Assembly (NCBI GenBank): GCA_963849885.1
Contig: CAWKIV010000006.1
Location: 5,051-69,050, forward strand
Direction of reading: 5' to 3'
Source of the DNA: an uncultured Actinomycetota bacterium
GTDB taxonomy: Bacteria > Actinomycetota > Actinomycetes > Mycobacteriales > CADCTP01
DNA length: 64,000 bases
The position numbers were made by a program. Of this stretch, positions 10,401 through 19,400 are shown piece by piece. Numbering within the stretch: the first letter of the stretch is position 1; the number at the start of each line of letters is the position of its first letter.

Positions 10401-13400
10401 TGACCGCCGAGCAGGTGCACGAGATCGGGCTCGCCGAGGTCGCGCGCACCGACGCCGAGCTGACCGAGTCCGGCCGCCGGGTGCTGGGCAGCGACGGCCT
10501 GGCCGACACACTGGGCCGGCTGCTCGCCGGCGACGGCACCAGGTTCAGGGATCGGGAGGAGCTCCTCGCCGTCGCGCGGGACGCGGTCGAGCGCGCGGAG
10601 GCCGTAGCACCGAAGTGGTTCGGGCTACGGAACGACGAGCCCTGCCTCGTACGGGCGGCCCCTCCACAGGAGGAGCAGAACGCCCCGTTCGCCTACTACT
10701 GGCCGCCCGCGGCGGACGGCAGCCGGCCCGGCATCTTCTACGTCAACACCTCGGCGCCGCAGACACGGGCCCGATTCGACGTCGTGGTCGACGCCTGCCA
10801 TGAAGCCGTGCCCGGCCACCACCTGCAGATCGCGGTCGCCCGTCGGCTCACCGGCCTGCCCGCGTTCCGGCGCCTCGGGCTGCCCCCCGCCTACCAGGAG
10901 GGCTGGGGCCTGTACGCCGAGCAGGCGGGCGAAGAGATGGGCCTCTACCGCACCGACCTCGACCGGCTCGGTCGCCGGGCCAAGGACGCGCTGCGATCCT
11001 GCCGCCTCGTCGTGGACACCGGTCTGCACGCGCTGGGCTGGAGCCGGCAGGAAGCGATCGACTACCTCACCGCGCACACCGCGTTCCCGGCCGAGCTGGC
11101 CGCCCGGGAGGTCGACCGCTACCTGGCCTGGCCGGGACAGGCGCTGTCCTACAAAGTCGGGCAGCTGGAGATCCTCGCGCTGCGCGAGGAAGCCCGCCGG
11201 CGCCAGGGACCGGGGTTCGACATCCGCCGCTTCCACGACGTCGTGCTGGGTTCCGGCGCACTGCCACTGGTCACGCTGAGGGAGCTCGTCCAGACCGAAC
11301 TGCGCTGACCAGAGGGCACGTCAGCCGGGCAGTCCGGGGAGCCGGCCGCCGCCGGGCCCGGACCGCCCGGCCCGGCTCAGCCGCGGCTGCCGATCAGCCC
11401 GTGCGGGTCCAGCACGTACTTGCGGGCCGCACCCTGGTCGAACTCCCGATAGCCGCGGGGTGCCTCGGTCAGCGGGATCGGGGTCGCGTTGACCGCCTTC
11501 GCGATCTGCACCCGGTCGTGCAGGATCGCCATCATCAGCTTCCGGTTGTAGCGCATCACCGGGCACTGCCCGGTGTAGAACGCGTGCGACTTGGCCCAGC
11601 CGAGGCCGAGCCGGATGGACAGCGAGCCCTCCTTGGCCGCGTCGTCGGCCGCGCCCGGGTCGCCGGTCACGTACAGCCCCGGGATGCCGAGCGCGCCGCC
11701 GGCCCGGGTGATGTCCATCAGCGAGTTGAGCACCCGGGCCGGTTGCTCGGTCTCCGCCTCGGCACCGTGCCCGCGGGCCTCGAAGCCGACCGCGTCCACG
11801 CCGCAGTCCACCTCGGGCTCGCCGAGGATCTGTTCGATCTGGTCCTTCGGGTCGCCCTGGGAGACGTCCACGGTCTCGCAGCCGAAGCTGCGCGCCTGAG
11901 CCAGCCGGTCGGCGTTGAGGTCGCCGACGATCACCACCGCGGCGCCGAGCAGGAACGCCGAGCACGCCGCGGCGAGCCCGACCGGCCCGGCGCCGGCGAC
12001 GTAGACGGTCGACCCGGTGCCCACCCCGGCGCTCACGCAGCCGTGGTAGCCGGTCGGGAAGATGTCGGACAGCATCGTCAGGTCGAGGATCTTCTCCATC
12101 GCCTGGTCCCGGTCCGGGAACCGGAGCAGGTTCCAGTCCGCGTACGGGACCAGCACGTACTCGGCCTGGCCGCCGACCCAGCCGCCCATGTCCACGTAGC
12201 CGTACGCGGAGCCGGGCCGGTCCGGGTTGACGTTGAGGCAGATCCCGGTCTTGCCCTCCTTGCAGTTGCGGCACCGTCCACAGGAGATGTTGAACGGCAC
12301 CGAGCACAGGTCGCCGACCTTGATGTACTCGACCCCCGGCCCGACCTCGACCACCTCGCCGGTGATCTCGTGCCCGAGCACCAGGCCCGGTCCGGCGCGG
12401 TGGTCCGGCCGCGGACCATGTGCTGGTCGCTGCCGCAGATGTTGGTCGCGACGTTCTTGAGGATCGCGGCGTGCGGCAGCTTGCGGCCGACGTTCGCCGG
12501 GTTGACCCCGGGACCGTCCTTCAGCTCCAGCGTCGGGTAGTCGGTGTCCTGCACCTCGACCTGCCCGGGCCCCATGTAGGCGACGGCCTTGTTCCCGGTC
12601 ATGGTGCGCTCCCTCCCGTGATGGATCGCCGTGCATTACAACTCGACCCTGCACCCGACGACCGGGTCCGTGCCACCCCCCGCGGGTGCTCCGTCGGCCC
12701 GGTACGACCGACCCGTCCCGGGCTGCGCCGGGACGGCCCCGATGCGCCGTATGGCGAGCGGCCCGGCTCGTAGCGTTCCTGCTGAACGGAGAGATCGCCG
12801 GCCTGGAAGTCCTTGATGCCGCCGCACTCCCGCATCCGGACCTGCTCTTCGACTGCACGGCTTGCTGAGGATCTGACGGTGACGTGCACCGACCCGCGCG
12901 CGTTGGCGGCTGGTGCCTACCGCACTCCGGATTCGCGCAGCATGCGCTTCCGAACGCGTTAGGATTTCACATACGACCGTATCGCGTCGGTGACGACATC
13001 TATGTGTTGCGGCTCCAGCATGTTCCCGGACGGCAGGACGAGGCCCCACTGCGCAAACGTCTCGCACACGGGCAGCTTCGGTCGACTGGAATTGCCTCCG
13101 GATGTGACCGGGTGCAAGTGCAAGGGGTGGAAAAAGCGCCGAGTCTCGCACCCTCTCGCCCGCAGGAACGCGGAGAGTCCGCGAGCGCCTCCATCGACGA
13201 TGTGGGGATCGACGACGACGGCGTACACCCAGTTCGCGTGCCGGTCTGGCCGGGGTGGTCTTGCCGGTATCCGCACACCTGGGCAGTCGTCTAATCGAGC
13301 CGAATAGTGGGCAGCGTTGGCGGCCTTGCGCGCGAGGAACTCGTCGAGGCGTTCGAGCTGGGCGAGTCCGACAGCGGCGTTGAAGGCCGACATGCGGTAG

Positions 13401-16400: not shown

Positions 16401-19400
16401 TGGCGAGCCTCTACGCAGAGAGCTCTCTGTACTGGAACGCCACCGGCTACGGGGAAGACCCCGACGTCGACCCGGACCGCTTCGAGCACTTCGGCATGAC
16501 GACGGTCGAAGCAATGGCGAGCGGCTGCGTCCCACTGTCGTACGCCCGCGCCGGTCAGCCTGAAGTCATCGAGGACGGCTGGTCGGGGATCCTCTGGGAG
16601 ACCCTCGACGACATGGCGAAGGGAACGTTGGCACTGATCGACAGACCGACAAGGCGGGCCAGGATGGCCGCAGCCGCGATCGAACGCAGCCAGAGATTCA
16701 CCTACCCACAGTTCAGCAGCACGTTTCAACGGCTGCTGGCCGAGACCTTCTCACCCGGCGCCTGAACAAGCCATGACATCGTCGAGAGCCCTCGTCACCG
16801 GAGCGTCCGGATTCCTCGGGCGGCACCTGGCCCAGACGCTCCAGGCCAGGTACGACGTGGTTGACAGAATCGACATCAGGGCACCGGACGACGGTTGCTC
16901 TGGTGAGGTCCATGTCGCCGATCTGCGTGACATCCTGCCTGGACTCGACCGGTACGACGCCGTCTTCCACCTTGCCGCCTCAGTGGGAGGGCGAGCCGGC
17001 ATCGAGAGGGGACCACTCGGCGTCGCCGGCAACCTCGCCACCGACCTGGCCTTCTTCGAATTCGCCGCTCGTACGCGTCCCGCTCATGCCGCGTACCTGT
17101 CCTCCTCTGCCGTCTATCCCGTTGAAGCCGCCTCGCAAAGCGCGCCGGACGACGGCGACCCGCGGCACGAGGAGAGCAGCGTGCAGCCGCTGGCGGCCAA
17201 CTTCGGCCGGCCGGACGGGACGTACGGCTGGGTGAAACTGACCGGAGAGCACTTGGCCCAGGTCGTGCGGGACCGGTTCGACGTACCCATCGTGTGCTAT
17301 CGCCCCTTCACCGTTTATGGGCCTCATCAAGGCCACGACTACCCGGTGACGGCCATTGCCGCAAGAGCCCTCTCCAAAGAGGACCCACTCATGCTTTGGG
17401 GCTCTGGTCGACAAGTACGAGACTTCATCTACATCGACGACGCCGTCGCAGCTATCGCTGCCACCTACCAACAGGTCTCAGCTCCGCGGTTGAACGTCTG
17501 CACCGGGATAGGCACCGAATTCATGAGCATCGCGAGGATCGCTGCTGACATGGTCGGTTACCAGCCGAGCCTCTTTGGCGACCCCAGCAAACCCACCGGC
17601 GTGGAGCGACGTGTCGGTTCGCCTCTCCGCCTGAACACATGGTTCCGGGCGAAGACCACATTAAGAGATGGAGTAGGATCGGTCCTCGAATGGCTCTCCA
17701 ATTCGAGCAACGACGGGAAGCGGCCGTGTATCGGAACGACTCCGAACGACGGAGCAAGATCGTCCTGGAAGTAGACAGCCCCCGCCCGGATCGGCGGCGG
17801 CGGTCTGTCGTCGTCTAGTGTCGCGTGAACGATGATCTTTGACCGCCGGCCGAGCCGCGGGCGAAACTGTCTCGGCGTGGTCTGCGGTGGGCGTTGGAAG
17901 GGATCGTGTGCCAGCACCTTGGTGCCGTTCGTCCGATGCTGCCTCTCTCTGAGAACCCGCAGCCGAGCAACGTGGGCCGCGCCAAGCTCCGTTCAGGGCT
18001 GCACGGTCCCGTTAGGGCTGGAACAGTTTCCAGTGCCCCTCGGAGCCGACCTGGGCGGCGCCGTCGACCACCCTGATGGCGGTGTCATCGTCGATCGCGT
18101 ACGTCGGCGCAGGAATCCGTGCCGCCCACGTCTCTGCGTTGGCCAAGGAAGCGTCGGGGTGGTCCGGGTGCTCCAGGTGCGGGATCACCGCGAAGTCGAC
18201 GAGTCCTGCTCCCTGTCCCGTGACCAGGATTCTGTCGACGTCACCCTGGGGCGTGGTGAAGACGATGTCCTCGGACTTCAGCGGTCCATCGTTGCCGCGG
18301 GGCGGTTCGACGTAGGTCTCGACGAAGGTGGAGGCAGCAGCGATGCTCCCGGCGCTCACCTCCACGTAGACCGCCTCGGAGCGCAGCGTCGGCAGGAGAC
18401 CGGTCAAACCGGAGCGCCGCATCCAGTTGGCGAGAAACAGGGGGTCGCCGCCCCATACCAGCAGTGCGTCGGCGTCCCGGACCGTTGGCACCCAAGCAGC
18501 CTCCTCGATGCTCGGCAGCACCGACAGCTCCAGGACCCCCAACGACTTCCAACCCAGTTCACACAACGGCAAGGGACCCTTGCCGCAGATCGCCCGCCAC
18601 GCCATGACGGGCCCGCCGGGGAAGGGGTAGATGGCGGTGGGGATGAAGAGGGCGTTGGACTCGGCGATCGGTTTGTCCAGCAGGTCAACCAGCGCGTCGT
18701 GGATGCTGCTGTTCTTGATCCCGGCCGAGGTGAGGAGAGCTCTCATGTTTCTACCTTCCTGAGTGCAATCTCGTGATGCCTGAATTGCCTACTGCGTGGC
18801 ACTCACTGCGCCCCGAACTATTGAGCAACATGACGGGCGCGACACCGGCTGAGGGCTGAGGCCTCTGGCAGCCGCGCCGTGCCGGGCGGGCTCCGCCGTG
18901 GCAGAACCCGCCCGGCCTGGCCGAGGGGCGTGTCTCCCCATCGGGTGGATGCGGACGGCGTCCAGACGTCGTCCGGCAAGGCGAGGAGGAGTCCGATACC
19001 GTCGTTGTATCGGCGACGACGAGAACGCCGCCGGTCGGCGTCTGGACGTCGGCCCGCGCCGCCAGCGGGTTGGGAGACACGCCCTAGACCTCGCCGCACG
19101 GCCCCTGGGTTGCGAACGGCAGGCTCGGGTACCCCGAGACGTCGGCGGAGTAGAGGGACCCGTCGGCTGCCGCCCTCAGCACCGCGAGCGTCGGGATCCG
19201 GAACAGGTTCTCGAGCTGTCCGTTGCTCTTCTGCCCGACGGAGCGCACCTCGTAGAAGATCGCGCCTGTGGTGGGCGTCGAGGTCACCGGCTGCTCGCCG
19301 GCCGGGGCGGTCCCGCCCATCAGCATGCGGGACAGCGCCGCGTTGGTGATGTCGATGAGCGGGTAGTGCGCGACGTTGACCGGCCCGTACTGGTCCAGCG

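What the first reader, a model, noticed from the sequence alone, without database searches (positions are those of the whole stretch)
12860..18850. Lower-GC ~6-kb islet encoding an unusual sugar-modification set
From about 12.86 to 18.85 kb the sequence is visibly less GC-rich, with A/T-ending codons appearing (by eye, not computed). The islet carries six genes. They are a DegT-type sugar aminotransferase (minus), a 104-aa coiled-coil ORF starting only 4-28 nt from the divergent aminotransferase start, and a shortened homoserine-dehydrogenase-like protein. Then come a GT4 glycosyltransferase with a ~300-aa unrecognised N-terminal region, an extended-SDR epimerase/dehydratase and an S51 peptidase-E-like protein. 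There is no nucleotidyltransferase, flippase or polymerase, so it is not a standard polysaccharide cluster. The right edge coincides with the palindromic element at 18925-19084. It looks like a horizontally acquired cassette that aminates and transfers a sugar onto an unknown acceptor.
Basis: partly seen in the sequence, partly recalled or inferred. Interest (0 to 1): 0.6.

Follow-up and report, generated by a model that had tools for sequence, protein, structure and literature searches.

The report
Rare mobile amino-sugar transfer gene cassette
The low-GC stretch is real and holds a rare five-gene operon, found so far only in uncultured soil and wastewater Actinomycetota, that probably makes an amino sugar and attaches it to an unknown target; two of its proteins belong to undescribed families.

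Summary
Window 12860-18850 is 66.0% GC against 73.1% elsewhere, the lowest 6-kb stretch of the window. Its genes use 18-27% A/T-ending codons against 3-13% in neighbours. All six reported genes exist.

The conserved unit is smaller than reported: five genes at about 12944-17890. They are a DegT aminotransferase (minus strand), a 104-aa protein, a 249-aa protein with a homoserine-dehydrogenase fold, a GT4 glycosyltransferase and an extended SDR. This set recurs in about 10 independent loci (window included), each with unrelated flanks. It occurs in only 4 of 185,579 species genomes. The S51 peptidase and the palindrome lie outside it.

The HSD-like call is confirmed by fold, but the canonical catalytic residues are gone. 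The GT's "unrecognised N-terminus" is an ordinary GT-B N-domain carrying a ~170-aa beta-sandwich insertion. The small ORF is real, with 26 invariant columns and only 14 clusters among 1.84 billion representatives.

Horizontal spread is supported by composition, lack of synteny, and a second contig that differs at 2 positions across the cassette but at 57 in the next 1.2 kb.

The chemistry (oxidise, then aminate at C4, then transfer) is inferred from homology only. The acceptor and the roles of the two novel proteins are unknown.

The parts
12944..17893 (.). Conserved, recently shared cassette segment (five genes)
   Evidence: Nucleotide homology to the L001 cassette spans 12944-17744 at 86.7%. 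The L014 contig differs at only 2 positions over 12703-17893 and at 57 positions over 17894-19084. No terminal repeats at the junctions.
12959..14077 (-). DegT/DnrJ/EryC1-family PLP sugar aminotransferase, 372 aa (ATG at 14077; an alternative GTG at 14101)
   Evidence: Pfam PF01041, E 4.8e-106. Closest solved relative is GDP-perosamine synthase 3bn1/3dr4 at 247 bits, then other sugar aminotransferases including ArnB. Best NCBIfam matches are LegC and PseC, both below cut-off. The Schiff-base Lys is present in 'YANKVITTGEGG'. dN/dS 0.15-0.27.
14105..14419 (+). Small 104-aa protein of an undescribed family: a ~55-aa ultra-conserved core and a variable Arg-rich tail
   Evidence: No Pfam or NCBIfam match. 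The core 'FWRALAE.RG.VI.ALHEFNYWHES.VARGEVIAGLE' is present in every cassette, including loci where it was not annotated. 26 invariant columns in 30 sequences. Only 14 clusters at E<=1e-3 among 1.84e9 representatives. dN/dS 0.18-0.45.
14433..15182 (+). 249-aa homoserine-dehydrogenase-fold protein without the canonical HSD catalytic residues
   Evidence: No Pfam, NCBIfam or single-sequence PDB match to HSD. AF2 model pLDDT 92.8. The top 35 Foldseek PDB hits are all homoserine dehydrogenases, E down to 3e-12, TMq 0.6-0.74. The family profile hits HSD 3do5 at E 8.6e-4. Only 20 homologs in 5.8e9 proteins. Invariant residues: H72, D95, R97, P106, G107, P109, D139, W238, R239, H241, R242, R243.
15179..16765 (+). 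GT4 (retaining GT-B) glycosyltransferase, 528 aa, with a ~170-aa beta-sandwich inserted in the N-terminal (acceptor) domain; its start overlaps the HSD-like stop
   Evidence: Glycos_transf_1 E 6e-16, with weak Glyco_transf_4 at residues 14-76. AF2 pLDDT 92.1, with all-beta elements at residues 128-254 between N-domain strands. Invariant GGGE14-17 and E436...E444. Foldseek top hits are MshA, BshA, SdgB, GtfA and TarM. P0021 is a 100% identical 528-aa protein.
16773..17774 (+). Extended SDR, 4-epimerase-like NDP-sugar oxidoreductase, 333 aa
   Evidence: PF01370, E 2.6e-36. Closest solved relatives are MoeE5 at 81.6 bits, the epimerase-domain protein 6zl6 (which I take to be a UDP-GlcA 4-epimerase, from memory), and GDP-fucose synthase. 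Motifs GASGFLG, SSSAVYP and YGWVK are present. There is no TDE/TSE dehydratase or decarboxylase motif.
18012..18746 (-). Peptidase S51 family gene: adjacent, low GC, but NOT part of the conserved cassette
   Evidence: PF03575, E 1.9e-13; the PepE equivalog scores 17.7 against a cut-off of 156. Absent from every other cassette locus. It lies in the 95%-identity part of the L014 comparison. GC3 is 0.83-0.86, close to the host value.
18926..19084 (.). Long imperfect palindrome (dispersed repeat), abutting the M14 peptidase stop codon; not the cassette boundary
   Evidence: Nested inverted arms 18926-18953/19057-19084 and 18953-18977/19030-19054. Fold -79.3 kcal/mol, z -6.0. A partial second copy at 46735-46813 is 92.6% identical over 54 nt. 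The L014 contig ends exactly at 19084.

Best explanation
Window ~12944-17890 is one copy of a rare, conserved five-gene operon of Actinomycetota that has moved between genomes.

Proposed mechanism (inferred from homology, not shown):
1. The 4-epimerase-like SDR oxidises a common NDP-sugar at C4.
2. The perosamine-synthase-like DegT enzyme transaminates the 4-keto sugar to an NDP-4-amino sugar.
3. The retaining GT4 transfers that sugar once onto an acceptor that the cassette does not encode.

The acceptor is recognised through the beta-sandwich inserted in the GT's acceptor domain. It may also involve the two translationally coupled partner proteins. These are the 55-aa ultra-conserved helical protein and the HSD-fold protein. 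The HSD-fold protein has lost the HSD catalytic lysines but keeps an invariant His/Asp/Arg cluster.

Shown here: the gene set and its conservation, the folds, the presence or loss of catalytic motifs, rarity, non-synteny and composition.
Inferred: the order of the chemistry, C4 regiochemistry, a complex between GT, small protein and HSD-like protein, and the acceptor class. The acceptor is probably a cell-envelope or small-molecule hydroxyl.
For: Conserved module.
- The same order (small, HSD-like, GT, SDR), plus DegT either divergent upstream or convergent downstream, is seen in the window/L014, L001, L002, L003/L004, L005, L006, L009, L011, L013 and L015-17. Every locus has different flanks.
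- All five genes are under purifying selection.
- Gene boundaries are tight. The HSD stop overlaps the GT start, and gaps between plus-strand genes are 7-13 nt.

Enzyme competence.
- DegT is closest to C4 aminotransferases (perosamine synthase, LegC, PseC) and keeps its PLP Lys.
- The SDR is closest to 4-epimerases and keeps S...YxxxK.
- The GT4 has an invariant EX7E and a GT-B fold.
- In the distant variant L012, a Gfo/Idh/MocA dehydrogenase stands where the SDR is. That fits a role of making the keto sugar for DegT.

Link between the small domain and a GT.
- In six distant clusters the small motif is the C-terminal domain of 184-298-aa proteins. By eye their N-part resembles a GT-B N-domain, and they sit directly upstream of the GT.
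- Inserted beta domains in GT4 acceptor domains are known to bind partners or acceptors in SdgB, GtfA/B and TarM (PMC8561734).

Mobility.
- GC is 66% against 73%. The cassette is below its flanks only in the window, L001 and L002.
- The L001 cassette neighbour matches window 52942-55683.
- Comparison with L014 shows 2 against 57 differences on either side of 17893.
- tRNA-Leu lies 51 bp from the L001 cassette, and an IS21 element lies near the L002 copy.
- Only 4 of 185,579 species genomes carry it.
Against: - No biochemical data exist for any member. The literature search found nothing.
- The SDR resembles epimerases, which normally do not release the 4-keto intermediate. The cassette has no 4,6-dehydratase, so the source of the keto sugar is unproven.
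- DegT scores are far below every NCBIfam equivalog cut-off (264.7 against 420 for LegC). The substrate and the regiochemistry are therefore guesses.
- The invariant charged residues of the HSD-like protein suit an enzyme as well as they suit an adaptor.
- This window has no integrase, tRNA, direct repeats or plasmid copy.
- No clean empty site was found in a relative.
- The GC dip is modest. The whole first 28 kb of the window is already below the window mean.
Confidence: 0.6

Rival explanations
1. The cassette makes a soluble low-molecular-weight amino-sugar glycoside, not an envelope modification. Candidates are a mycothiol- or bacillithiol-like cofactor precursor, a compatible solute or an aminoglycoside-like disaccharide. 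The HSD-fold protein would bind or produce a small hydroxy- or amino-acid-like acceptor, or process the product.
For: - There is a single GT and no flippase, polymerase or priming transferase.
- The best structural matches of the GT are MshA and BshA, which glycosylate inositol phosphate and L-malate.
- The HSD fold normally binds a C4 amino acid and NAD(P). The family keeps an invariant Arg/His/Asp cluster suited to a carboxylate or phosphate ligand.
- Most copies have no membrane protein.
Against: - MshA and BshA may rank first simply because they are typical GT4 structures. TM scores are only 0.34-0.52.
- Three cassette loci add a 651-aa polytopic membrane protein with a weak PMT_2 (GT-C) match, which points to the envelope.
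- GT4s with inserted beta domains that have been studied act on polymers or proteins.
- The cassette has no ligase, deacetylase or exporter.
Confidence: 0.2
2. The HSD-fold protein is the active dehydrogenase that makes the keto substrate for DegT, using His72/Asp95/Asp139 in place of the lost lysines. The SDR only epimerises or reduces the sugar nucleotide.
For: - The invariant His, Asp and Arg residues resemble an active site.
- An HSD-family protein accompanies DegT and the GT even in the distant L012 locus. There it still matches Pfam Homoserine_dh at E 8e-9.
- The SDR is epimerase-like, not dehydratase-like.
Against: - The glycine-rich dinucleotide loop is not conserved in the family (for example TTGDPTS, AVADPVA).
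- The 'ANK' lysine is Leu, the 'fEA' Glu is Ala and the D-x3-K lysine is Ala. About 45 residues of the catalytic domain are deleted (my alignment by eye to HSD motifs).
- L012 carries a separate Gfo/Idh/MocA dehydrogenase in addition to its HSD-like gene.
Confidence: 0.15
3. The segment is a native, vertically inherited operon. Its lower GC reflects local mutation or selection, not transfer. Its patchy distribution reflects repeated loss and sparse sampling of uncultured lineages.
For: - In the more distant loci the cassette has the same GC as its flanks or slightly more (L003, L005, L006, L011, L013, L015).
- This window shows no mobility genes or insertion scars.
- The whole 0-28 kb part of the window is somewhat GC-poor.
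- MAG data are fragmentary.
Against: - Flanks differ in every locus, including the related MAG L001, where the cassette abuts a gene that lies 35 kb away here.
- Codon usage, not only overall GC, deviates.
- Divergence against L014 jumps sharply from 0.04% to 4.8% at 17894.
- Contigs carrying the neighbouring M14 gene at 82-92% nucleotide identity lack the cassette.
Confidence: 0.12
4. It is a protein O-glycosylation system of the GtfA/GtfB or SdgB type. The GT4 with its inserted beta domain glycosylates a protein. The ultra-conserved small protein would be either the acceptor (Ser/Thr in 'HES[TS]VARGE') or the GtfB-like adaptor.
For: - SdgB, GtfA and TarM are among the top structural matches, and they share the design of a beta domain inserted in the acceptor domain.
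- The small protein is extremely conserved and is fused to a GT-N-domain-like module in distant systems. This recalls non-catalytic GtfB.
Against: - None of 46 family members matches Pfam DUF1975.
- TM scores to SdgB, GtfA and TarM are 0.43-0.47 with high rmsd.
- The wider GT family sits in ordinary multi-GT glycan clusters.
- No repeat-rich acceptor protein is encoded nearby.
Confidence: 0.08

Closest known systems
ArnA(dehydrogenase domain)/ArnB/ArnT pathway for 4-amino-4-deoxy-L-arabinose (own knowledge of the pathway; ArnB matches)
   Same: An SDR-type C4 oxidase is paired with a DegT-family C4 aminotransferase. This needs no separate 4,6-dehydratase or nucleotidyltransferase. Some cassette copies add a polytopic membrane protein with weak similarity to PMT_2/ArnT-type GT-C enzymes.
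   Different: - The SDR lacks the decarboxylase T-S-E motif and is closer to 4-epimerases.
- There is no formyltransferase, deformylase, GT2 polyprenyl-phosphate transferase or flippase.
- The transferase is a soluble retaining GT4.
- ArnB is not the best match for the DegT enzyme (176 bits against 247 for perosamine synthase).
GDP-perosamine / legionaminic / pseudaminic-type C4 aminotransferases (Per 3bn1/3dr4, LegC TIGR04181, PseC TIGR03588)
   Same: These are the best sequence matches for the DegT enzyme. The PLP lysine is conserved.
   Different: - Scores are well below the equivalog cut-offs (264.7 against 420; 248.7 against 423.5).
- The cassette has no 4,6-dehydratase (GMD, PseB or LegB type).
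- The downstream genes of those pathways are absent.
GT4 enzymes with a beta domain (DUF1975) inserted in the acceptor domain: SdgB/SdgA, GtfA-GtfB, TarM (PMC8561734)
   Same: A retaining GT-B enzyme of about 500 aa with an all-beta domain inserted in the N-terminal acceptor domain. They are among the top structural hits. In those enzymes the insertion mediates oligomerisation, partner binding and acceptor recognition. Here too the GT is tied to small partner proteins.
   Different: - The insertion has no detectable DUF1975 sequence signature in any of 46 family members.
- Global TM scores are only 0.43-0.47.
- The partners are a 55-aa helical protein and an HSD-fold protein, not a GT-like GtfB.
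- The acceptor is unknown.
Homoserine dehydrogenase family (PF03447 + PF00742)
   Same: The two-domain fold matches: the top 35 PDB hits are HSDs. There is weak profile similarity. A distant cassette relative still passes Pfam Homoserine_dh.
   Different: - The protein is about 50-180 residues shorter.
- The 'ANK' and D-x3-K lysines and the 'fEA' glutamate are replaced.
- The Gly-rich loop is variable.
- A family-specific invariant C-terminal 'DTPWRAHRR' motif is present.
- It is always encoded with a GT4 and a DegT enzyme, not with threonine or methionine genes.
MshA / BshA (first steps of mycothiol and bacillithiol synthesis)
   Same: They are the best structural matches of the GT core and weak NCBIfam matches. 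Each is a single retaining GT4 that puts one amino-sugar derivative on a small acceptor.
   Different: - NCBIfam scores are 25-33 bits against cut-offs of 274-462.
- MshA and BshA lack the beta-sandwich insertion.
- No deacetylase or cysteine ligase is encoded nearby.
Glycosyltransferase auxiliary pseudoenzymes such as DesVIII/EryCII for amino-sugar GTs (own knowledge; not tested here)
   Same: The concept is shared: a catalytically degenerate homolog of an enzyme family is encoded next to a GT that transfers an amino sugar and is required for it.
   Different: DesVIII-type partners are P450 homologs and act with GT1 enzymes in macrolide pathways. No sequence or fold relation exists, and a complex has not been shown here.

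Membership tests
DegT/DnrJ/EryC1/StrS sugar aminotransferases | Match to PF01041 above the gathering score | tested here: met
   355.5 bits against a cut-off of 19.8, covering profile positions 3-360 of 360.
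DegT/DnrJ/EryC1/StrS sugar aminotransferases | Active-site lysine that forms the PLP Schiff base (aminotransferase rather than His-type dehydratase) | tested here: met
   'CYSFYANKVITTGEGG' is present in the translation. The assignment of this Lys rests on my knowledge of the family motif.
GDP-perosamine synthase / LegC / PseC equivalogs | Score above the NCBIfam equivalog cut-off | tested here: not met
   LegC 264.7 against 420. PseC 248.7 against 423.5. ArnB 209.3 against 631.
Homoserine dehydrogenase | Two-domain HSD fold | tested here: met
   AF2 pLDDT 92.8. Foldseek ranks 1-35 are all HSDs, E 3e-12 to 1e-6.
Homoserine dehydrogenase | Pfam PF00742 or PF03447 match above the gathering score | tested here: not met
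   No Pfam or NCBIfam match at E<=0.01. Only a profile-level E of 8.6e-4 to the PDB HSD 3do5.
Homoserine dehydrogenase | Catalytic Lys/Asp pair (D-x3-K), the 'ANK' lysine and the 'fEA' glutamate | tested here: not met
   In the family alignment these positions read G-H-A-A-V-T-x-x-L79, M-A-A-A-L-L-P-G-L-P and D139-E-A-L-A143. No Lys occurs at these positions in any of 20 members. The residue correspondence was made by eye against HSD motifs.
Homoserine dehydrogenase | NAD(P)-binding glycine-rich loop after beta-1 | tested here: inconclusive
   The loop varies among members (TGTGPV, TTGDPT, AGADSV, AVADPV). Binding cannot be judged from sequence.
GT4 retaining GT-B glycosyltransferases | Glycos_transf_1 C-domain, EX7E motif and GT-B two-Rossmann fold | tested here: met
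   PF00534 58.9 bits against a cut-off of 26.4. E436 and E444 are invariant in 46 sequences. The AF2 model has a GT-B fold, and the top PDB hits are GT4 enzymes.
DUF1975-type GT4 (GtfA/SdgB/TarM) | All-beta domain inserted in the N-terminal acceptor domain | tested here: met
   Beta strands at residues 128-254 lie between N-domain elements. SdgB, GtfA and TarM are among the top 50 hits.
DUF1975-type GT4 (GtfA/SdgB/TarM) | Sequence signature of DUF1975 | tested here: not met
   DUF1975 is not among the 19 Pfam families matched by any of the 46 family members at E<=1.
Extended SDR NDP-sugar epimerase/dehydratase | PF01370 match, GxxGxxG and S...YxxxK | tested here: met
   125.7 bits against a cut-off of 20.9. 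'GASGFLG', 'SSSAVYP' and 'YGWVK' are present in the translation.
NDP-hexose 4,6-dehydratase / UDP-GlcA decarboxylase subtypes | T-D-E or T-S-E motif at the catalytic Ser/Thr; equivalog score | tested here: not met
   The motif is S-S-S-A-V. dTDP-glucose dehydratase scores 43.9 against 365, and LegB 49.9 against 475.
Classical genomic island / integrative element | Integrase or transposase, tRNA target, flanking direct repeats | tested here: not met
   The only tRNA in the window is at 59806-59894. No convincing flanking repeats. The junctions share no terminal sequence with other copies. In L001 a tRNA-Leu lies 51 bp away, and in L002 an IS21 element lies nearby.
Classical genomic island / integrative element | Atypical composition and variable presence among relatives | tested here: met
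   (composition). (context and presence).
Wzx/Wzy- or ABC-dependent polysaccharide gene cluster | Priming transferase, flippase or ABC exporter, polymerase, several GTs | tested here: not met
   The islet holds only one GT and none of these families, and none appear in the four flanking genes scanned, window ~9.6-22.1 kb.
Anti-phage defence systems (PADLOC) | Match of any cassette protein to a PADLOC model | tested here: not met
   No match at E<=0.01 for the six proteins.

The most novel reading that the evidence does not exclude
The GT4, the 55-aa 'LHEFNYWH...VARGEV' protein and the catalytically remodelled HSD-fold protein form a previously undescribed three-part glycosyltransferase machine. 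The two partners would deliver or define the acceptor. The machine would install a 4-amino sugar on a so far unknown actinobacterial molecule, either a new low-molecular-weight glycoside or cofactor, or a new envelope modification. The HSD fold would have been recruited for a function other than dehydrogenation.
Probability: 0.2. Interest if true: 0.7.

Novelty: new variant of a known kind. Interest (0 to 1): 0.45.

Why it matters
If the inference holds, this is a compact, self-contained module for adding an amino sugar, and it moves between soil Actinomycetota. Amino-sugar decorations change surface charge, resistance to antibiotics and phages, and the bioactivity of natural products.

The module also offers two handles for discovery. 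One is a tiny, almost invariant protein family with no relatives. The other is an example of the homoserine-dehydrogenase fold stripped of its catalytic lysines but kept under selection beside a glycosyltransferase.

The module is known only from metagenome-assembled genomes, so nothing about it can yet be looked up. It is a clean five-gene target for heterologous expression.

It is not a surprise in kind. Orphan sugar-modification cassettes are common, and the chemistry proposed is conventional.

Tried and rejected
- Single-sequence searches of the HSD-like protein gave nothing useful. Pfam and NCBIfam had no match, and PDB gave only spurious ankyrin-repeat matches. Homology emerged only from the family profile and the predicted fold.
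- Empty-site test. I searched JGI metagenome contigs with the neighbouring M14 peptidase. Eighty loci at 64-92% identity were returned, but none shares any other gene with the window. Homology stops at the gene borders. The test therefore gave neither an empty site nor synteny.
- Plasmid carriage. tblastn of the HSD-like and small proteins against 72,556 plasmids found no match.
- Defence-system reading. PADLOC gave no hits. The 'GT4-conflict' Pfam matches in 9 of 46 GT relatives look like general GT4 similarity.
- Structured RNA or riboswitch in or near the islet. Rfam found no match at E<=0.1 over 12-20 kb.
- Terminal repeats of a mobile element. The 17-nt inverted match 12705-12721 / 19456-19472 and the other short repeats are at chance level among 47 pairs. 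The junction alignments show nothing shared.
- The S51 peptidase as a sixth cassette gene. Rejected, because it is absent from all other copies.
- Literature search for 'homoserine dehydrogenase-like' together with glycosyltransferase and aminotransferase returned 0 papers.
- A trehalosamine-type product (TreT-like GT plus the nearby GH13 gene). The TreT match is only 22.6 bits, and the GH13 gene does not travel with the cassette. This is kept only as one instance of the small-molecule rival.

Full report

Yes. The window is 72.4% GC overall. The stretch 12860-18850 is 66.05% GC against 73.08% for the rest, and it is the lowest of all sliding 6-kb windows (minimum 0.661 at 12801; mean 0.723, sd 0.028). 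The per-kb profile agrees.

The dip lies in codon usage, not only in amino-acid content:
- GC3 of the genes inside is 0.72-0.80, against a median of 0.88 for 50 ORF calls across the window.
- A/T-ending codons make up 18-27% of codons in the five cassette genes.
- They make up 14% in the S51 gene and 3-13% in neighbouring genes.

The deviation is modest, about 7 points of GC. The whole first 28 kb of the window is also somewhat below the window mean.

**2. Gene content**

All six reported genes are present.

| Gene | Coordinates | Strand | Evidence |
|---|---|---|---|
| DegT aminotransferase | 12959-14077 | - | PF01041, E 4.8e-106 |
| 104-aa ORF | 14105-14419 | + | starts 3 or 27 nt from the DegT start, depending on GTG 14101 or ATG 14077 |
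| 249-aa protein | 14433-15182 | + | no family match |
| GT4 | 15179-16765 | + | start overlaps the preceding stop |
| Extended SDR | 16773-17774 | + | PF01370, E 2.6e-36 |
| Peptidase S51 | 18012-18746 | - | PF03575, E 1.9e-13 |

The flanks are a DUF885 gene, a glutathione-independent formaldehyde dehydrogenase (fdhA), an M14 carboxypeptidase and a GH13 enzyme. No nucleotidyltransferase, flippase, polymerase or priming transferase was found among these genes.

**3. The conserved unit has five genes, not six**

A search with the 249-aa protein found only 20 homologs, all 215-249 aa, among 5.8 billion proteins. I looked up the genomic context of these and of GT homologs. I also ran tblastn of the six window proteins against those loci.

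The recurring module has the order small protein (81-111 aa), HSD-like (232-266 aa), GT (485-551 aa), SDR (288-333 aa). DegT lies either divergently upstream or convergently downstream. This module occurs in:
- the window and L014;
- L001/L007 and L002/L008;
- L003 and L004/L010;
- L005, L006, L009, L011 and L013;
- L015-L017.

The flanking genes differ in every independent locus. The S51 peptidase occurs only in the window and in its near-identical copy L014.

Three loci (L003, L004, L006) add a 651-655-aa polytopic membrane protein between the SDR and DegT. It has a weak PMT_2 (GT-C) match at E 1.2e-3.

A scan of one genome for each of 185,579 species found the HSD-like gene in four genomes. 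All four are uncultured Actinomycetota MAGs, one of them Pseudonocardiales. Further copies come from soil and wastewater metagenomes. No copy is on a sequenced plasmid.

**4. The two doubtful ORFs are genes**

The small ORF has a core that is nearly invariant in every cassette: 'FWRALAE.RG.VI.ALHEFNYWHES.VARGEVIAGLE...WR.RC..AEA'. This includes two loci where no gene had been called. In an alignment of 30 members, 26 columns are invariant, followed by a variable Arg-rich tail.

An exhaustive profile search of 1.84 billion cluster representatives found only 14 clusters at E<=1e-3. The family has no Pfam, NCBIfam or PADLOC match.

Pairwise dN/dS against four other copies:

| Gene | dN/dS |
|---|---|
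| small gene | 0.18-0.45 |
| HSD-like gene | 0.20-0.36 |
| DegT, GT and SDR | 0.15-0.33 |

Whether the small protein is a coiled coil was not tested.

**5. The HSD-like protein**

The AF2 model built on the 20-sequence alignment has mean pLDDT 92.8. Its best 35 PDB matches are all homoserine dehydrogenases, with E from 3e-12 and TMq 0.6-0.74. The family profile reaches the HSD 3do5 at E 8.6e-4. A distant cassette relative (L012, 283 aa) still passes Pfam Homoserine_dh at E 8e-9.

It is not a homoserine dehydrogenase in the enzymatic sense. I aligned the family to the HSD motifs by eye, guided by the HMMER alignments:
- 'GKHVVTANK' reads 'GHAAVTxxL', so the Lys has become Leu79.
- The Glu of 'fEA' is Ala.
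- The D-x3-K lysine is Ala143.
- About 45 residues between the 'GIP' strand and the D-x3-K helix are missing.
- The glycine-rich loop after strand 1 varies among members.

In their place the family has its own invariant residues: H72, D95, R97, P106-G107-P109, D139 and a C-terminal 'DTPWRAHRR'. Either this is a ligand-binding or adaptor protein, or it is an enzyme with a new active site. These tools cannot decide.

**6. The glycosyltransferase**

The "~300-aa unrecognised N-terminal region" is not an extension. The protein starts with the usual GT4 'GGGE' loop, with G14-E17 invariant in 46 sequences. Of the 46 family members, 34 match Pfam Glyco_transf_4 in the N-domain.

The AF2 model (pLDDT 92.1) shows a GT-B fold. 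Residues about 105-275, between N-domain strands, form an all-beta domain. The EX7E motif, E436...E444, is invariant.

The top PDB matches are MshA, BshA, SdgB, GtfA and TarM. SdgB, GtfA and TarM also carry a beta domain (DUF1975) inserted in the acceptor domain. There it mediates oligomerisation, heterodimerisation with GtfB and acceptor binding (PMC8561734).

No member of the present family matches DUF1975 by sequence, so the resemblance is architectural only.

This ~510-540-aa architecture is not special to the cassette. There were 485 homologs at E<=1e-10, including Anaerolineales proteins at 31-45% identity. Two distant members sit in ordinary glycan clusters.

**7. The other two enzymes**

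DegT is closest to GDP-perosamine synthase (3bn1/3dr4, 247 bits). After it come other sugar aminotransferases, including ArnB at 176 bits. By NCBIfam it is closest to LegC and PseC. All scores lie far below the equivalog cut-offs. The best matches are C4 aminotransferases, and the PLP lysine is present.

The SDR is closest to MoeE5, to the epimerase-domain protein 6zl6 (which I take to be a UDP-glucuronate 4-epimerase, from memory) and to GDP-fucose synthase. It has 'SSSAVYP' and 'YGWVK'. It lacks the T-D-E or T-S-E motif of dehydratases and decarboxylases. It also lacks the Cys of GDP-fucose synthase; that residue comparison rests on my knowledge of those families.

**8. A link between the small domain and a glycosyltransferase**

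In six distant clusters found by the exhaustive search, the small-protein motif is the C-terminal domain of 184-298-aa proteins. By eye their N-terminal part resembles a GT-B N-domain, for example 'ADLVVCGSEGQRN...HRVNP'.

One of these proteins lies directly upstream of, and overlapping, a 44%-identical GT in L012. That locus also has DegT, a Pfam-positive HSD-like gene and a Gfo/Idh/MocA dehydrogenase, but no SDR.

This suggests two things:
- The small domain works with the GT.
- The oxidoreductase slot (SDR here, Gfo/Idh/MocA there) supplies the keto sugar for DegT.

**9. Evidence for horizontal movement**

- (a) Composition, as described in section 1. The cassette is below its flanks only in the window (66 against 73%), L001 (68 against 73-77%) and L002 (70 against 73%). 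These are the three closest copies. In the more distant loci it equals or slightly exceeds its flanks.
- (b) Context. In the related MAG L001, the cassette matches window 12944-17744 at 86.7% nucleotide identity. It is followed at once by DNA that matches window 52942-55683 at 81%.
- (c) A sharp divergence break. A 6,394-bp contig (L014) covers window 12703-19084. It differs at 2 positions over 12703-17893 and at 57 positions over 17894-19084. The break lies about 120 bp after the SDR stop. The cassette segment has therefore been shared between two strains much more recently than the adjoining S51 region.
- (d) Mobility-associated neighbours elsewhere. A tRNA-Leu(TAA) gene ends 51 bp from the L001 cassette. 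An IS21 element lies 1.3 kb from the L002 copy.
- (e) Neighbouring gene without the cassette. Contigs carrying the neighbouring M14 gene at 82-92% nucleotide identity carry none of the cassette genes.

Against transfer:
- This window has no integrase.
- The only tRNA in the window is at 59.8 kb.
- There are no flanking repeats above chance.
- No end sequences are shared with other copies.
- No clean empty site was found.

**10. The palindrome**

The element at 18926-19084 is a real long imperfect hairpin. It has nested arms and a fold energy of -79.3 kcal/mol with z = -6.0. It abuts the M14 stop codon. A partial second copy at 46735-46813 is 92.6% identical over 54 nt, so it is a dispersed repeat. 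That probably explains why the L014 contig ends exactly at 19084. It is about 1.2 kb beyond the cassette's right edge and is not its boundary.

**11. Most likely mechanism**

Shown:
- five co-inherited, selected and tightly packed genes;
- three enzymes with intact catalytic motifs;
- two novel partner proteins.

Inferred:
1. The SDR oxidises C4 of a common NDP-sugar.
2. DegT converts the keto group to an amine.
3. The retaining GT4 adds the amino sugar once to an acceptor. The inserted beta-sandwich helps recognise the acceptor, together with the small and HSD-fold proteins.

The acceptor is not encoded in the cassette. The occasional GT-C-like membrane protein hints at the envelope. The MshA/BshA resemblance and the single GT hint at a small molecule.

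I put about 0.6 on the overall picture, meaning a mobile operon for amino-sugar synthesis and transfer. I put much less on any specific sugar or acceptor.

**12. Novelty**

The kind of system is known: an SDR paired with a DegT enzyme and a GT. The particular five-gene module, the ultra-conserved small protein family and the lysine-less HSD-fold family appear to be undescribed. They have no family models and the literature search found no paper. I rate it a new variant of a known kind, of moderate interest.

Noticed in passing
window 11377-12602 (-), shift near 12385-12400: The formaldehyde dehydrogenase gene fdhA is split between two frames. The N-terminal 71 residues ('MTGNKAVAYMGPGQ...HMVRGRTTAPD') start at ATG 12602. 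The rest ('GLVLGHEITGEV...') is in another frame, and the NCBIfam match begins at profile position 60. This is either a real pseudogene or a long-read indel error.
   Followed up: partly
window 46735-46813: A second, partial copy of the 18926-19084 palindromic element (92.6% over 54 nt plus a 25-nt inverted piece). The palindrome is therefore a dispersed repeat in this genome, REP- or MITE-like.
   Followed up: partly
L014 (ERZ25039504 contig_132057) against window 12703-19084: A 6.4-kb contig is binned in the same MAG assembly as L001, which carries its own 87%-identical cassette. This contig covers exactly the islet, and its right end coincides with the end of the palindrome (19084). Its cassette proteins are 100% identical to the window's, but its S51 protein is only 94% identical. 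This suggests strain-level variation or a binning artefact.
   Followed up: partly
window 19084-20198 (M14 peptidase gene) and loci L018-L097: The M14 carboxypeptidase gene has 82-92% nucleotide-identical copies in many soil metagenome contigs. Homology stops at the gene's borders on both sides, and no neighbouring gene is shared. The gene itself sits in a highly rearranged or mobile context.
   Followed up: partly
window 52942-55683 (-) and L001 13353-16092: An 874-aa protein gene plus a small upstream gene is 81% nucleotide-identical to the gene pair next to the L001 cassette. That pair is a 787-aa protein with a weak WXG100-like N-terminus and a DUF6317 protein. It may be a type VII secretion-associated toxin pair.
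   Followed up: no
L012 3860-9608: A distant variant of the module with this gene set: methyltransferase, DegT, a Pfam-positive 283-aa HSD-like gene, a Gfo/Idh/MocA dehydrogenase, a 298-aa protein fusing a GT-N-domain-like part to the small-protein motif, and a GT at 44% identity. It has no SDR.
   Followed up: partly
L001 8396-8472: tRNA-Leu with anticodon TAA, which reads the rare TTA codon of high-GC actinomycetes. It ends 51 bp from the start of cassette homology. The window's DegT and SDR genes contain 2 and 1 TTA codons.
   Followed up: no
window 18876-18921: A separate short GC-rich hairpin (22-nt arms, 2-nt loop) between the S51 start region and the long palindrome.
   Followed up: no
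window 58001-60000: Very high GC (82.7-82.8% per kb) around a tRNA-Ser(GCT) gene at 59806-59894. This is far above the window mean.
   Followed up: no
window 14078-14104 and equivalent gaps in L005, L011, L013 and L015: The divergent DegT and small-protein starts are only 14-41 bp apart in every locus with this arrangement. The two promoters must overlap coding sequence, or the transcripts are leaderless.
   Followed up: no
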